The notes under the pieces are model-generated. The model did not search any database and was not told the DNA's origin. It saw only the letters and a list, made by a program, of their open reading frames with translations. From NCBI RefSeq assembly GCF_001598795.1, contig NZ_BCZP01000007.1, positions 120,001-152,000 of the forward strand: a stretch of DNA of 32,000 nt, written 5' to 3'. Positions 8,993 through 12,919 of the stretch are shown piece by piece (position 1 is the stretch's first letter; each line of letters starts with the position of its first letter). A program made the translations under genes and the position numbers. This DNA is from Delftia acidovorans NBRC 14950. GTDB taxonomy: Bacteria; Pseudomonadota; Gammaproteobacteria; Burkholderiales; Burkholderiaceae_C.

Positions 8993-9019
8993 GGAGGCAT
9001 TTTAAAGTTGGCGATTTCA

Positions 9020-9250
9020 AGACCGAAGCGCAACACATGCCAGCATGTGCAAGAAGACGGCCAGCGGGGGTGTTGAAGCCATGGATAGCACGAGATCTGC
9101 CATTGAGGCTGTCGACGATGGCGTCCAGGTCGTCCTGGCTGCACACGCTTAGATCAGTGCCCTTGGGCAGGTACTGGCGCAGCAGGCGTTGATGTTCTCA
9201 CAGGTGCCGCATTGCCAAGCGCTGTGCGGATAGCAGAAGGGCACCCTTAC
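9020..9250 (-). pseudogene. IS30-family transposase, 3' fragment (5'-truncated, frameshifted)
   Basis: The minus strand reads [20 protein letters not shown], then after a -1 shift [44 protein letters not shown]. This matches the conserved IS30 C-terminal block (HSPWQRG.NEN.NGLLRQYFPKGTDLS....L..IA..LN.RPRK.LG..TP.E). A stop lies immediately upstream and the catalytic N-terminal part is absent. Confidence 0.7.
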
Positions 9251-9527
9251 GCCTCACCCACGTGGCTTGCTCATCTCCTTGTTCTGGTCGTACGTGAAGC
9301 TCTTGCGCATCGGGTCCGCGACATAGGATGCGCTCTCAAGCTGGCACGTATCCGGCTCGCGATGGGTGGCGCCCAATGCTGACTGTCGGCTTCCCGGTGC
9401 AGTCAAGAATTCACCCTCCCGGCCACAGCCATCCATACGCCCGGGCCGGTAAAATCGGGCCTGTAGCGGACGCCTGCTCTTAGCCTCCAGCTAGCAAGTA
9501 GCTATCAAACAAGAAAACCGAGGAAAT

Positions 9528-10034
9528 ATGCGACGTAGCTTGTACACGCTAGCCTTTCTATGCCTTTTTATGGGGGCAACTAGCGTAAGTGCTGAAGTTG
9601 TCGAGCTTCAGAATGTGAAGATTGAAGTACCCACCGGCTGGACCACGATGCCTTCCGCCAGTACTCGCTCAATTCGGCTAAGAGGACCAGGTGGCAAGGT
9701 TGAGATTACCGTTGTCGTTCACAACCATGGCGCGTCGTCGGATGGTGATATCGAGCAACTTGCCAAGCGTTTTTTGGAAGCCGAAACACAAGCTTTCGCA
9801 AGGACTGCAAGGGAAAGCGGCCTGTCAGTTTCACATCAGACTGCGAACGTCGGCAAGGAAGCCAGCCGGTGGCAACTGAAAAGCTCGCGCGGCCTGAGTA
9901 ACGGCATGGAGCTTCGTGGGATTACTACCTTTGAAGCGGGTCGCGCCATCTCCATCGGTGCCGAATCGAAAAGCGCCGGACAATCCGAATTGGACATTGC
10001 AGTTCGGCTTGTAGCGAGCCAGATTGGCACTTGA
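9528..10034 (+). CDS. Hypothetical secreted protein (168 aa)
   Basis: RBS gaggaaat before the ATG. Signal peptide MRRSLYTLAFLCLFMGATSVSA/EV. About 47% G+C in a sampled 60-nt line, against much higher flanks. I recognise no family. Confidence 0.65.
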   Translation: MRRSLYTLAFLCLFMGATSVSAEVVELQNVKIEVPTGWTTMPSASTRSIRLRGPGGKVEITVVVHNHGASSDGDIEQLAKRFLEAETQAFARTARESGLSVSHQTANVGKEASRWQLKSSRGLSNGMELRGITTFEAGRAISIGAESKSAGQSELDIAVRLVASQIGT

Positions 10035-10170
10035 GCGATAGCTTGGCGACGCCGAAAAGCACCGCAAACCCCTCGGTTGAACGGCGGCTTCCGAGAGCAT
10101 CAGACAGTCGCTATGGGTCGAAACCACCAGTACAGATGGCGGGAAAGCGGTCGAGGGCGTAGCAAATGCC

Positions 10171-10302
10171 AGAGCGTGTTATGCACTTTCAAGTACCCGC
10201 ATTGGCTCTGCGCGCAGAGCCAGCCCGAAGGGAAAGCCGGGGGCACCTAGCCGGGCAAGGGGCCAGGCTTTCGCGGGCACCTAAAAGTTCACAACACGCT
10301 CT
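10171..10302. repeat. 132-bp MITE/REP-like element bounded by 19-bp imperfect inverted repeats, with a central perfect palindrome
   Basis: Left arm AGAGCGTGTTATGCACTTT (10171-10189) matches the reverse complement of 10284-10302 (AGAGCGTGTTGTGAACTTT) at 17/19 positions. Inside are a 20-bp perfect palindrome TGGCTCTGCGCGCAGAGCCA (10203-10222) and the direct repeat GGGCACCTA (10241-10249 and 10275-10283). Confidence 0.55.
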
Positions 10303-10709
10303 AAGTCACTGAAGCCCTGTGACCAACGTACACCGGACAGCCATCGTTGCAGCAAATCCGGCCCACGAGCTGAACAGCCGCTCCTGGCGAGCAGCCTGAA
10401 TGCACTTGGCCGCATCCATCGCCAGCAACCGCTGCAAAGCCGACGCCGGGAACCTCCCAATGAACGCCCGAAAAGGGTCGATACGAGCCAACTGGGACAC
10501 GCGGAATCGGTCCTTCAAGCTGATACGCGGCGAACCGAGCAATCGACTGGCTACTCCCAAGGATGAAGCGGTCGTTCAAGACCGTCGTATGCGCCTGGCG
10601 AACTCATCTGCACCATTCGAGACCGCTCGCATGTCTTGGAGAAGTGGGCCGCCACGGCGCCTTCGGCAGAATGGCGTCTTGCAACAGAAGCGAAGCTGCC
10701 CATACGAAG

Positions 10710-11051
10710 ATGACCAACTGCCTATACGAAGTTCCAGTACGTGTGCTCAATCACGAAGGCTGCGGGCTGCCAGAAGAGTTTGCGGGTGCTGTGATCACTT
10801 GCTATGTATCAGCATCTGACCCATTGTCGGCGGTCAAGCGCGCCAAGCTAGCAGTCGAGAAGCTCAGCTATGTATTCGATGACTTGGCATCTGACCAAAT
10901 TCGAGAGCTGGACATCGGCGGATGGGACAAGTACGTTCGTCAAGCTTGGCCTGAAGCCGTTGCCGATATGCCGCTGCAGAGCGAGCTTCCAGCCCTTGTC
11001 GAGCGTGGCGTTGTCCTCTTGGGTCCAGCAATAGGATTCTTGAATCGTTAG
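10710..11051 (+). CDS. Hypothetical cytoplasmic protein (113 aa)
   Basis: Internal ATG of track ORF 10563..11051. MTNCLYEVPVRVLNHEGCGLPEEFAGAVITCYVSASDPLSAVKRAKLAVEKLSYVFDDL... has balanced, protein-like composition, whereas the codons upstream of it are R/H/C-rich. No family recognised. Confidence 0.45.
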   Translation: MTNCLYEVPVRVLNHEGCGLPEEFAGAVITCYVSASDPLSAVKRAKLAVEKLSYVFDDLASDQIRELDIGGWDKYVRQAWPEAVADMPLQSELPALVERGVVLLGPAIGFLNR

Positions 11052-11150
11052 GGACGGTCTGCACAACACACGCATTAACGAACGGATGCGCTGAACTCAT
11101 TGCTCCGCAATACGGCCGAAGCCTGCTCCTTCTCATTTCACGTGCCTGCA

Positions 11151-11347
11151 TCACCGGATTGGCGACCCGCTTGACCTGACCGCGCCACTGGTGCCGCGCA
11201 CCGGATGAACCCAGCCAGATTCAACGTCCACTCTGATGTGGCACTTCATGCCGAAGTAACACCGCTGCCCTTTGTGGCGTTGCTTCATCTGCGGGTCGCT
11301 TTCGCCACTGCTGTTCTTGGTCGAACTGGGCGCGGCAAACCGGTCAA
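11151..11347 (-). pseudogene. IS5-family transposase, internal fragment
   Basis: The minus strand reads VDRFAAPSSTKNSSGESDPQMKQRHKGQRCYFGMKCHIRVDVESGWVHPVRGTSGAV. This parallels the conserved IS5 block VDATIIEAPSSTKNK...RDPEMHQTKKGNQW.FGMKAHIGVDA.SGL.H....TAAN. Both the N- and C-terminal parts of the transposase are missing. Confidence 0.65.
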
Positions 11348-11443
11348 CGCAACACACTCATCAAACATCTCAGCAGATGTTCTGAACCCCAGCGTCTTCC
11401 TGGGACGCTGGTTCAACTGCCTTGCAATCGCATCTGGTAACGG
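11345..11443 (-). pseudogene. Second IS30-family transposase fragment (extreme C-terminus), fused to the IS5 fragment
   Basis: The minus strand reads PLPDAIARQLNQRPRKTLGFRTSAEMFDECVAL, matching the IS30 C-terminal LN.RPRK.LG..TP.E.F block. It differs in sequence from the fragment at 9020-9250. It runs straight into the IS5 fragment in another frame. Confidence 0.55.
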
Positions 11444-11465
11444 TGCATGCGGGCCCTCAATGTGT

Positions 11466-11816
11466 TCAGGTCCCAGACGCACTTTCGGGCGCGTCAGCCT
11501 CGGCAAGAAGGAACACCTTTGTACCAATAGGAACGTCTTCCTTCCGAAAGTCCTTCGGAAGAAGAATGGGGGCCGTGATGACAGCGGGGCGTGGTCGAGG
11601 CCCAAAGTTCAGCATCTCCAGCCCGCAGATGTGCGTATCCTGCACAGTTCCATCTGCCAGTTCCAGACGAATCGGCGTTCCAACCTTCACGGATGGCCCA
11701 CCGGTTGCCGCAGCAGGGCCAGGTACCAGGATGCACCCACGTCCTGTGATCTGGAAGGCATCTTCAACGATGAATAGAAGGTTCACGGCCTTCGATGGTA
11801 CGCGTGAAACTCGCAC
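11466..11816 (-). CDS. Stand-alone EF-Tu domain-2-like beta-barrel protein (about 105-116 aa)
   Basis: AVNLLFIVEDAFQITGRGCILVPG...SVKVGTPIRLELADGTVQDTHICGLEMLNFG...ILLPKDFRKEDVPIGTKVFL aligns by eye with E. coli EF-Tu domain 2 ([56 protein letters not shown]...VLLRGIKREEIERGQVLA). There is no GTPase domain. The start is a GTG at 11816 (AGGAAG 10 nt upstream) or a downstream GTG. Confidence 0.55.
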   Translation of the reverse strand: MRVSRVPSKAVNLLFIVEDAFQITGRGCILVPGPAAATGGPSVKVGTPIRLELADGTVQDTHICGLEMLNFGPRPRPAVITAPILLPKDFRKEDVPIGTKVFLLAEADAPESASGT

Positions 11817-12056
11817 TAAGCGCTTGCTTCCTGTACGAAGCTGCTTGCAGAGGCTGGAAGCGGACCGCGAGCCAGCTTTACCGTGCGATGGGCGATGGGC
11901 TCAGGCCATCGCTCACATCACTCAGCGCCGGCCTTGAGCGTTCAGGTAGACAATCCATGAGTCTAAGTTCGGCGTCTAAAAGTCCATCACAGCAACGGAG
12001 CCACCAAACGGATAAGGTTCCACCTCACGATTACCAAGACGCCGGAAGACAAACCA

Positions 12057-12350
12057 ATGATTGCCAACATTTTTCTCATCAGCATCATCGTTGTTGCCTT
12101 GGTTTTATTTTCCAGAGATCGCTACAACCACCGACGCGCTCTCAAGGTTGAGACAAGTTGGACATGCTTTCGATGTGGTGTCGAGCTTGGCCCCATGCAA
12201 TCCGTTTTCATCAAAGTCGCCGGGGCAACCGCAGGAACCAAGGCCAGAGTCTGCGAGCGCTGCGCAAAGCGCGACGTTCACATTTGGTGGACTATCGCAG
12301 CAGCATTGGGAATGCTGTTCGTCATCACGGTTTTCTTTTTGCTTGCCTAA
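12057..12350 (+). CDS. Small membrane protein with a 4-Cys zinc-ribbon loop (97 aa)
   Basis: GGAAG lies 8 nt upstream of the ATG. TM1 is IANIFLISIIVVALVLFS. The loop carries CFRC ... CERC (two CxxC pairs about 34 residues apart). TM2 is IWWTIAAALGMLFVITVFFLLA. The region is low in G+C. Confidence 0.6.
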   Translation: MIANIFLISIIVVALVLFSRDRYNHRRALKVETSWTCFRCGVELGPMQSVFIKVAGATAGTKARVCERCAKRDVHIWWTIAAALGMLFVITVFFLLA

Positions 12351-12427
12351 AATTCGCTGAATTCCGAGGCTGCTGCACGGCAGGCTTTGGCGTGAGACAC
12401 GCGCAAGACTGCCCAGGGTCGGACACA

Positions 12428-12596
12428 GACTGCAATGCCCGAGCCTGCGGCAACTCGGAAATCTCTGCCGTGTAATGTGGAGAGCGCCGTTCCTGGCCCA
12501 TGCTCCAGGACTGTGTTGCCCAGCTTGCCCCGTGCGGGCCACACGCACGGCGCCCTTCCCAAAGCGGCTATTGATAGTGTCCATGGCACGCATCAC
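12428..12596 (-). pseudogene. Y-family DNA polymerase (UmuC-like) 3' fragment, frameshifted
   Basis: The minus strand reads VMRAMDTINSRFGKGAVRVARTGQAGQ and, in a shifted frame, MGQERRSPHYTAEISELPQARA. Compare the E. coli UmuC C-terminus LMTVMDTLNAKEGRGTLYFAGQGIQQQWQMQRAMLSPRYTTRSSDLLRVK. No upstream polymerase domains are present. Confidence 0.65.
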
Positions 12597-12919
12597 CCTG
12601 CTGCGGACCCAGACGAGACCCATGCGTCTTGGCCCAACGCTGTGTTTCTGCATGCCGCCCCTGCAACGCCTAACATCTTGACACGCTTTAGGACTGCAAA
12701 GTGTCCACTCACATCCGAAAACCTTGGAACACTCTGCGCCACGCGCCGAAGAGCGAGGCAGTTCGTTGCCACGCCCCGGCCGCCGCCTGAAAGCACGCAA
12801 TGCACCCCACACCACAGGCTGCAGCCTCCACGCTGCAGCCGCCCGACCGCGCGCCCGCGAACTCCTTGCCTGCCTGCGCAGAGCCCGGCCATCTCGGCCA
12901 CGAAGCCAGGAGTTCCTTG

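What the first reader, a model, noticed from the sequence alone, without database searches (positions are those of the whole stretch)
11466..11816. Stand-alone EF-Tu domain-2-like protein with no GTPase domain
The ORF aligns by eye along about 90 residues with the beta-barrel domain 2 of EF-Tu, including the signature VED.F.I.GRG. It lacks domains 1 and 3, and it sits in a mobile-element graveyard directly upstream of an IS30 fragment. Domain 2 of EF-Tu contacts the aminoacyl end of tRNA, and EF-Tu is exploited or attacked by several toxins and phage factors. Speculatively, an isolated copy could be a decoy, an immunity protein or an adaptor. It could also simply be a fragment captured from a larger translational GTPase gene, but no G-domain remnant is visible upstream (11817-12056).
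Basis: partly seen in the sequence, partly recalled or inferred. Interest (0 to 1): 0.6.

Follow-up and report, generated by a model that had tools for sequence, protein, structure and literature searches.

The report
Mobile stand-alone EF-Tu domain-2 protein
This intact small gene encodes only the middle beta-barrel domain of the translation factor EF-Tu; it belongs to a widespread, unstudied family that often travels as a single-gene integron cassette, and its function is still unknown.

Summary
Window 11466-11816 (-) is an intact ORF. Its likely true start is the GTG at 11786, giving 106 aa. The product is a genuine homologue of EF-Tu domain 2:
- family profile against PDB: E 3.6e-8, and all 58 hits are EF-Tu;
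- hhalign against EF-Tu domain 2: 98.3% probability, E 1.4e-14;
- the top Foldseek hits for the AlphaFold model are nearly all EF-Tu.

It is not a tuf pseudogene. No G-domain or domain-3 relic flanks it. Orthologues give dN/dS of 0.10-0.39. There are 253 clusters of mostly 90-110-aa stand-alone relatives. No Pfam or PADLOC model covers the family.

New here: in five independent relatives the gene is a single-ORF integron cassette flanked by attC sites, once next to an IntI fragment. Other copies sit in IS- or integrase-rich islets, twice near WapI-like or Imm26-like immunity genes. One relative is fused to a 2H phosphoesterase.

The window copy has no attC. It lies in a low-GC island, and an IS30 remnant starts about 30 nt after its stop codon.

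Function is inferred only. The most likely role is a mimic of the aminoacyl-tRNA-end face of EF-Tu, acting as a decoy or as an RNA 3'-end binder. This scan has noted similar stand-alone EF-Tu-domain cassettes on other DNA before.

The parts
11466..11786 (-). Coding sequence of the stand-alone EF-Tu domain-2-like protein. It is 106 aa from the GTG at 11786. The longest ORF starts at the GTG at 11816 and gives 116 aa.
   Evidence: ORF. The start position is supported by homologues. Homology to EF-Tu domain 2. Fold. Purifying selection.
11436..11808 (-). A 373-bp unit shared at 80% DNA identity with the closest independent relative (L053). It is the gene plus about 22 nt upstream and about 30 nt downstream. 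Similarity stops at both edges.
   Evidence: blastn.
11348..11434 (-). C-terminal fragment of an IS30-family transposase. It starts about 30 nt after the stop codon and replaces whatever originally followed the gene.
   Evidence: tblastn, 93% identity over 29 aa to an annotated IS30 transposase.
11191..11338 (-). Internal fragment of an IS5-family transposase gene, abutting the IS30 fragment.
   Evidence: blastn to annotated IS5 family transposases, 72-77% identity.
11810..11889 (.). Imperfect palindrome directly upstream of the gene. It is the best hit to the attC model in the island but is not significant. It may be a decayed attC or may be chance.
   Evidence: cmsearch with filters off: 8.3 bits, E 0.6.
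12057..12350 (+). Divergent 97-aa neighbour with two predicted membrane helices and a CxxC...CxxC loop. It accompanies the gene only in near-identical copies of this same locus. It is not a conserved partner.
   Evidence: There is no similarity to the membrane tail of the fused relative P0079.
8993..12700 (.). Lower-GC island (52-62% against 63-74% in the flanks) between dbpA and the DUF1800 gene. It holds the gene and the IS debris.
   Evidence: Composition profile. Flanking genes identified. Gene GC3 is 0.56.

Best explanation
This is an intact, horizontally acquired accessory gene. Its about 106-aa product is a free-standing descendant of domain 2 of bacterial EF-Tu.

It belongs to a large, uncharacterised family of single-domain proteins that move between genomes as one-gene units. 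Often the unit is an integron gene cassette; otherwise it lies in small IS- or integrase-associated islets. In this genome the cassette context has been lost, and an IS30 remnant has replaced the 3' flank.

The family keeps the acidic and aromatic residues that line the aminoacyl-A76 pocket of EF-Tu domain 2 (VED.F, GRG, G.EM). It has lost the basic residues that hold the tRNA backbone. It has gained its own invariant motifs (VPG, P(I/V)LLP, VP.GT).

My working mechanism is inferred, not shown. The protein acts alone as a mimic of that face of EF-Tu. It would bind something that normally docks there, such as a toxin, a phage factor or an EF-Tu-directed antibiotic (decoy role), or an RNA 3' end.

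Shown: identity, homology, selection, mobility.
Inferred: any binding partner and any protective effect.
For: Homology to EF-Tu domain 2:
- Profile against PDB: E 3.6e-8, only EF-Tu hits.
- hhalign: 98.3% probability, E 1.4e-14.
- In whole-genome searches the only weaker hits of the family profile are the tuf genes themselves.
- Fold.

A real protein family:
- 26 close homologues of 95-168 aa.
- 253 clusters at E<=1e-10, mostly 90-110 aa.
- dN/dS 0.10-0.39 with saturated dS.

Not a tuf fragment.

Mobility:
- The family is found in 5 of 400 genomes of its own bacterial family and in 0 of 399 other genomes of the phylum.
- GC3 is 0.56 in a high-GC genome.
- attC sites abut the gene in G337 (both sides, with an IntI fragment nearby), G339 (both sides, in an array of at least 13 attC), G028 (3' side), L065 (both sides) and L078 (both sides).
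- Weak attC hits lie just upstream in G292 and in a Verrucomicrobiota MAG.
- In each attC-flanked case the cassette holds this ORF only.

Pocket residues across 69 diverse members: F 64/69, R of GRG 57/69, E of G.EM 52/69, E of VED 47/69.

Hints to function:
- One cluster fuses the domain to a 2H phosphoesterase (PF13563, 29.2 bits) that has both H-x-T motifs.
- A WapI-like immunity gene lies about 760 nt away in L068. An Imm26-like gene (sub-threshold) lies immediately downstream in L060.
- Published background: a CDI toxin binds only domain 2 of EF-Tu, overlapping the aa-tRNA 3'-end site (PMC5737660).
Against: No partner, ligand or phenotype is known.

Against a decoy or immunity role:
- No sampled relative lies directly downstream of a toxin gene.
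- None of the 69 members hits a PADLOC defence model.
- The beta-hairpin that the NC101 toxin pairs with (PMC5737660) corresponds to the most divergent, proline-rich, low-confidence loop here.

Against RNA binding:
- The equivalents of EF-Tu R262, N273 and R288 (E. coli numbering, from my memory of the ternary-complex literature) are variable or hydrophobic.
- The conserved motifs may be kept for folding only.

About the window copy:
- It has no attC, no nearby integron integrase and no recognisable promoter, so its expression here is unproven.
- The attC model was built from only six Burkholderiales sites.
- The majority of loci, about 17 of 24, show no attC.
Confidence: 0.55

Rival explanations
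1. Orphan immunity gene or decoy in the strict sense. The protein neutralises an incoming interbacterial toxin (CDI, T6SS or Rhs type) or a phage factor that must dock on EF-Tu domain 2, by offering a surrogate docking site.
For: EF-Tu domain-2 homology. Single-gene mobile cassettes. Immunity-family neighbours in two loci. A known toxin binds only EF-Tu domain 2 (PMC5737660). Earlier notes of this scan report EF-Tu-domain-like orphan immunity genes elsewhere; these are unverified leads.
Against: None of about 24 loci places the gene after a toxin domain. The hairpin used by the NC101 toxin is not conserved. There are no PADLOC hits.
Confidence: 0.3
2. RNA 3'-end binding module. The barrel retains the A76/aminoacyl pocket and binds tRNA or other RNA 3' ends. 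It would shield them or recruit repair enzymes.
For: VED.F, GRG and G.EM are conserved. One cluster is fused to a 2H phosphoesterase with both H-x-T motifs, and this enzyme class acts on RNA 2',3'-cyclic phosphate ends. Distant members lie next to rpsL-rpsG in two related contigs.
Against: The basic tRNA-contact positions are not conserved. In EF-Tu, tRNA binding needs all three domains (established knowledge). Only one fusion cluster is known.
Confidence: 0.2
3. Antibiotic sponge. The free domain 2 sequesters EF-Tu-directed compounds that bind this domain, such as GE2270A-type thiopeptides, and so gives resistance by titration.
For: Integron cassettes often carry resistance genes. From my recollection of the GE2270A-EF-Tu structures, the R223/E259 pair and the 215-230 segment that contact GE2270A have conserved equivalents here. 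PDB entry 1d8t, an EF-Tu-GE2270A complex, is among the fold matches.
Against: There is no direct evidence. The hosts are Gram-negative bacteria, which are usually impermeable to thiopeptides. Positions equivalent to N273 and G275 are changed.
Confidence: 0.07
4. A silent relic in this genome. The family is functional elsewhere, but this copy was stranded without its cassette promoter or attC and cut off at its 3' flank by IS30, so it is not expressed.
For: No attC, IntI or promoter-like site was found. IS30 and IS5 debris abuts the gene. In L053 a tightly coupled downstream ORF starts 17 nt after the stop. Here only about 4 codons of that position survive.
Against: The ORF is intact. It is 98-99% conserved at this same locus in three metagenomic contigs. 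A plausible GAAGG ribosome-binding site precedes the GTG at 11786.
Confidence: 0.12
5. Pseudogene fragment of a tuf or other translational GTPase gene.
For: It covers only domain 2. The neighbourhood is full of gene fragments.
Against: No G-domain or domain-3 relic was found in 10501-12700. Homologues of the same length are under purifying selection. Identity to EF-Tu is only about 31-34%. No longer homologues were found.
Confidence: 0.02

Closest known systems
Domain 2 of bacterial elongation factor Tu (Pfam PF03144 GTP_EFTU_D2; E. coli residues about 205-295)
   Same: It has the same beta-barrel fold and is demonstrably homologous. It shares the VED.F, GRG, G.EM and LL..(I/V)....(V/I)..G motifs.
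   Different: It is free-standing, with no G domain or domain 3. It scores below the Pfam threshold. It has a proline-rich loop in place of the d2 hairpin, and family-specific VPG, P(I/V)LLP and VP.GT motifs. The basic tRNA-contact positions are lost. It is sporadic and mobile, not universal.
Other about 100-aa stand-alone domain-2 proteins that do hit PF03144. These are ESM Atlas clusters in Actinomycetota and Chloroflexota, automatically named 'EF-Tu/IF-2/RF-3 family GTPase family protein'.
   Same: Same size, same fold (TM 0.60-0.61) and a single domain. They are also uncharacterised.
   Different: Their sequences are closer to canonical domain 2. The present family does not reach the Pfam model. 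Their genomic contexts were not examined here.
Integron gene cassettes of unknown function (sedentary chromosomal integrons and attC clusters lacking an integrase)
   Same: Relatives are promoterless single ORFs bounded by GCCTAAC...GTTAGGC attC sites in same-strand arrays. One lies beside an IntI fragment.
   Different: The window copy has no attC and the genome has no matching attC array. Most relatives lie outside recognisable integrons.
EF-Tu-dependent CDI tRNase toxins and their immunity proteins (CdiA-CT/CdiI NC101, PMC5737660)
   Same: That system shows that domain 2 of EF-Tu is a docking surface for toxins. This is the premise of the decoy idea.
   Different: There is no sequence relation to CdiI. 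No toxin gene lies next to any relative. The contacted hairpin is not conserved.

Membership tests
EF-Tu domain 2 (PF03144 GTP_EFTU_D2) superfamily | Match to the Pfam model above its gathering score | tested here: not met
   No Pfam hit for the window protein at E<=10. None of 69 family members hits PF03144 at E<=0.01. The fused relative P0073 reaches E 0.06. The outlying three-repeat protein P0098 hits at 3e-20.
EF-Tu domain 2 (PF03144 GTP_EFTU_D2) superfamily | Profile-level homology to domain 2 of EF-Tu | tested here: met
   hmmsearch of the family profile against PDB gives E 3.6e-8 over residues 219-301, with EF-Tu only. hhalign gives 98.3% probability and E 1.4e-14. 16 of 69 members hit NCBIfam EF-Tu models weakly.
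EF-Tu domain 2 (PF03144 GTP_EFTU_D2) superfamily | Beta-barrel fold superimposable on domain 2 | tested here: met
   AF2 model with pLDDT 76.6. Top Foldseek PDB hits are nearly all EF-Tu, TMq 0.55-0.61. Atlas matches to PF03144-bearing clusters have TM 0.60.
Translational GTPase (EF-Tu proper) | G domain upstream and domain 3 downstream in the same polypeptide | tested here: not met
   tblastn with a full EF-Tu finds only residues 205-263. No longer homologues were found.
Translational GTPase (EF-Tu proper) | Residues that bind the aminoacyl-tRNA 3' end | tested here: inconclusive
   Equivalents of E215, D216, F218, R223 and E259 are mostly kept. Equivalents of T228, R262, N273 and R288 are not. 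The residue roles come from my recollection of the ternary-complex literature.
Integron gene cassette | attC recombination site directly following the ORF, with the preceding cassette's attC directly before it | tested here: not met
   Window: best attC-model score is 8.3 bits, E 0.6. No attC was found in the genome by model or strict pattern. The feature is met in relatives G337, G339, G028, L065 and L078.
Integron gene cassette | Integron integrase (IntI, TIGR02249) at the head of the array | tested here: not met
   The window's genome has only generic tyrosine-recombinase-level matches. G337 has an IntI fragment 650 bp from its copy. G339 has a full IntI elsewhere in the genome.
Polymorphic-toxin immunity protein | Gene immediately downstream of a toxin-domain gene in at least some relatives | tested here: not met
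   No toxin neighbour was seen in about 24 loci. Only nearby WapI-like and Imm26-like (sub-threshold) genes were found.
Polymorphic-toxin immunity protein | Binding and neutralisation of a cognate toxin | not testable with these tools
   This needs co-expression or binding assays.
Known anti-phage defence systems (PADLOC) | Match to a defence-system model | tested here: not met
   0 of 69 members match.

The most novel reading that the evidence does not exclude
Bacteria circulate, as single-gene integron cassettes, a free-standing copy of the EF-Tu surface that toxins, phage factors or antibiotics must dock on. The cassette protects its host by target mimicry. This would be a one-domain, one-gene protection module aimed at attacks on the translation machinery.
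Probability: 0.3. Interest if true: 0.75.

Novelty: new variant of a known kind. Interest (0 to 1): 0.45.

Why it matters
EF-Tu is one of the most frequently exploited proteins in bacterial conflicts. CDI tRNases, Lit/Gol exclusion, Doc, Qbeta replicase and several antibiotic classes all act on it or through it.

A mobile family that consists only of its domain 2, is under purifying selection and is carried in integron cassettes is a plausible target mimic. It could reveal new toxins or phage factors that act through EF-Tu.

It also gives a name and a testable idea to one of the many unknown integron cassette families. The family currently has no Pfam model, and some sources mislabel its members as 'EF-Tu-like GTPase'.

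If the protein turns out to be only a generic barrel, the finding stays a tidy annotation of an orphan family.

Tried and rejected
- Single-sequence Pfam, NCBIfam and PDB searches were too weak to decide.
- A conserved neighbour was sought and rejected. The downstream genes of three relatives are not alike. The divergent two-helix zinc-ribbon gene accompanies the gene only in copies of this same locus. It is unrelated to the membrane tail of the fused relative P0079.
- Plasmid and phage collections gave no match. IMG/VR gave none.
- No longer or fused close relatives were found.
- The diverse alignment A3 could not seed locus scans.
- A loose regular-expression search for attC was too noisy. 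It was replaced by a covariance model.
- The attC model found nothing significant in the window or in the genome. The tool warns that an empty genome answer proves little.
- The promoter and terminator scan found nothing relevant to the minus strand.
- Literature searches for stand-alone EF-Tu domain 2, or for it as an integron cassette, found nothing relevant.
- A homodimer prediction gave no verdict and is not used as evidence either way.
- The genome's own tuf genes are cut off at contig ends, so a relative's tuf was used for the relic search.

Full report
**What is there**

The minus strand of the window carries an intact ORF at 11466-11816 (116 aa from a GTG). All relatives begin about ten codons later, at the position of an in-frame GTG at 11786 that is preceded by GAAGG. 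The product is therefore probably 106 aa.

**Is the EF-Tu resemblance real?**

The single sequence gives only borderline signals:
- Pfam: no hit.
- NCBIfam EF-Tu models: E 0.014-0.2, always over EF-Tu positions 210-265.
- PDB phmmer: E 0.38 to EF-Tu.

Family profiles settle the question:
- A 26-member profile hits EF-Tu domain 2 at E 2.3e-5.
- A 69-member profile hits at E 3.6e-8 across residues 219-301. All 58 PDB hits are bacterial or mitochondrial EF-Tu.
- hhalign against an alignment of domain 2 from tuf genes gives 98.3% probability, E 1.4e-14 and 81 aligned columns.
- In a search of 400 genomes of the same bacterial family, the only weak matches of the profile were the tuf genes themselves.
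- An AlphaFold2 model (pLDDT 76.6) has EF-Tu chains as nearly all its best Foldseek matches in the PDB, with TM 0.55-0.61.
- The model also matches ESM Atlas clusters that carry PF03144.

The family is a divergent offshoot of bacterial EF-Tu domain 2. It lies below the reach of the Pfam model: 0 of 69 members hit it.

**Not a pseudogene**

- A tblastn of a complete EF-Tu from a relative against window 10501-12700 found only residues 205-263. Nothing matched the G domain or domain 3.
- No longer close homologues exist in the large protein collection.
- Twenty-six close homologues are 95-168 aa long.
- An exhaustive profile search found 253 clusters (50% identity) at E<=1e-10, nearly all 90-110 aa.
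- Pairwise dN/dS among eight orthologues is 0.10-0.39, with synonymous sites saturated.

**Distribution and mobility**

True members occur in only 5 of 400 sampled genomes of the same bacterial family. They occur in none of 399 other genomes of the phylum. They were not found on plasmids, phages or IMG/VR contigs. One member comes from a Verrucomicrobiota MAG.

The window gene has GC3 of 0.56. It sits in a lower-GC island between dbpA and a DUF1800/DUF1501 pair.

The decisive context came from relatives:
- **G337.** The gene is bounded on both sides by canonical attC sites (GCCTAAC...GTTAGGC). Its ATG lies 6 nt after the upstream core site. It is followed by a GNAT cassette. It lies 650 bp from a fragment of an integron integrase.
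- **G339.** The gene lies between two attC sites inside an array of at least 13.
- **G028.** An attC follows the stop codon.
- **L065 and L078.** In these two metagenomic loci, attC sites flank the gene on both sides.

A covariance model built from six of these sites also gave weak hits just upstream of the gene in G292 and in the Verrucomicrobiota contig. In every attC-flanked case the cassette holds this ORF alone.

Other relatives lie beside different mobile or variable features:
- IS66, IS3, IS5 or IS110 elements, a P4-type integrase, H-NS genes and a Qat defence cluster.
- Short low-GC3 patches among core genes.
- A WapI-like immunity gene about 760 nt away in L068, and a sub-threshold Imm26-like gene immediately downstream in L060.

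No neighbour is conserved across loci.

**The window copy**

The attC model finds nothing significant here. The best hit is 8.3 bits, E 0.6, and it happens to lie at 11810-11889 directly upstream of the gene. The genome shows no matching attC array and no integron integrase.

DNA similarity to the closest independent relative (L053, 80%) covers only 11436-11808. That is the gene plus about 22 nt and about 30 nt of flank.

An IS30 transposase C-terminal fragment begins about 30 nt after the stop. An IS5 fragment follows it. In L053 another ORF starts 17 nt after the stop. Here that position is cut off after a few codons.

The same locus, at 98-99% identity, occurs in three metagenomic contigs. 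One of them differs in the segment 9368-11186.

No promoter-like site was found for the minus strand, so expression is unproven.

**What it may do**

Across 69 diverse members, the residues equivalent to the acidic and aromatic lining of the aminoacyl-A76 pocket of EF-Tu are largely kept:
- F: 64/69
- R of GRG: 57/69
- E of G.EM: 52/69
- E and D of VED: 47/69 and 43/69

The equivalents of the basic tRNA-contact residues are variable or hydrophobic. New invariant motifs appear: VPG, P(I/V)LLP and VP.GT. The assignment of roles to EF-Tu residues is from my own knowledge of the ternary-complex and GE2270A structures. It was not tested here.

Rare fusions exist:
- tandem duplicates;
- C-terminal membrane or zinc-ribbon tails;
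- one cluster with a 2H phosphoesterase domain (PF13563, above threshold) that has both H-x-T motifs.

A published structure shows that a CDI tRNase toxin binds only domain 2 of EF-Tu, overlapping the aa-tRNA 3'-end site (PMC5737660). However, the hairpin it pairs with corresponds to the least conserved loop here.

I therefore rank the readings as follows:
1. A mimic of that face of EF-Tu acting alone: a decoy for a toxin, phage factor or antibiotic, or an RNA 3'-end binder.
2. An unrelated use of the barrel.
3. A silent relic in this strain.

None of these is shown.

**Relation to earlier notes of the scan**

I found the attC flanks first. A word search of earlier notes then showed that stand-alone EF-Tu domain-II-like and domain-III-like mini-proteins had been noted on other genomes. 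Some were integron cassettes and some were orphan immunity genes. Those notes are unverified leads and were not used as evidence.

**Verdict**

- The pseudogene alternative is refuted.
- The decoy idea remains open.
- The new fact is that the family is a mobile, often integron-borne, single-domain derivative of EF-Tu with no described function.

Noticed in passing
L044 5461-9736 (G339:C1 about 2.175-2.180 Mb): A large attC array of at least 13 sites with small low-GC3 ORFs. It lies about 1.5 Mb from the genome's only complete integron integrase (G339:C1:624214-625176), so it looks like an attC cluster without its own integrase.
   Followed up: partly
L041 4850-6950 (G337:C149): A degenerate integron. 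It has an IntI fragment (model positions 23-116 only), a likely attI core GTTAGGC, a first cassette with a CxxC zinc-ribbon ORF, then the domain-2-like cassette, then a GNAT acetyltransferase cassette.
   Followed up: partly
P0143 (L037 7001-7975): A 324-aa protein fuses the domain-2-like barrel to a 2H phosphoesterase ('2'-5' RNA ligase' superfamily) that has both H-x-T motifs. It is a possible clue that the barrel binds RNA 3' ends.
   Followed up: partly
L073 1220-2774 and L076 457-2141: Distant family members (35-37% identity) lie divergently next to rpsL-rpsG, the start of the operon that normally ends in tuf. The two contigs are related to each other, so this is a single observation.
   Followed up: no
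L068 2703-3098 and L060 1740-2225: A WapI-like immunity protein (PF24716, E 5.7e-16) and an Imm26-like ORF (E 1e-3, below threshold) lie close to family members. This suggests that some loci are arrays of orphan immunity genes.
   Followed up: partly
Window 9368-11186 against L056 6630-7884: A near-identical metagenomic contig (98% identity on both sides) carries a different 1.25-kb segment in place of this 1.8-kb part of the island. The island content therefore varies between close strains.
   Followed up: no
Genome contigs C15 and C41 (ends): Both tuf genes of this assembly are cut off about 45 codons in, at contig ends. The duplicated tuf gene probably breaks the assembly there.
   Followed up: no
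Window 12057-12350 (+): A 97-aa ORF with two hydrophobic helices and a CxxC...CxxC loop. No Pfam family matches it, and it was found only in copies of this same locus.
   Followed up: partly
P0098 (342 aa): A lipoprotein-like protein with three tandem domains that hit PF03144 strongly (3e-20). It bridges canonical domain 2 and this family in sequence space.
   Followed up: no
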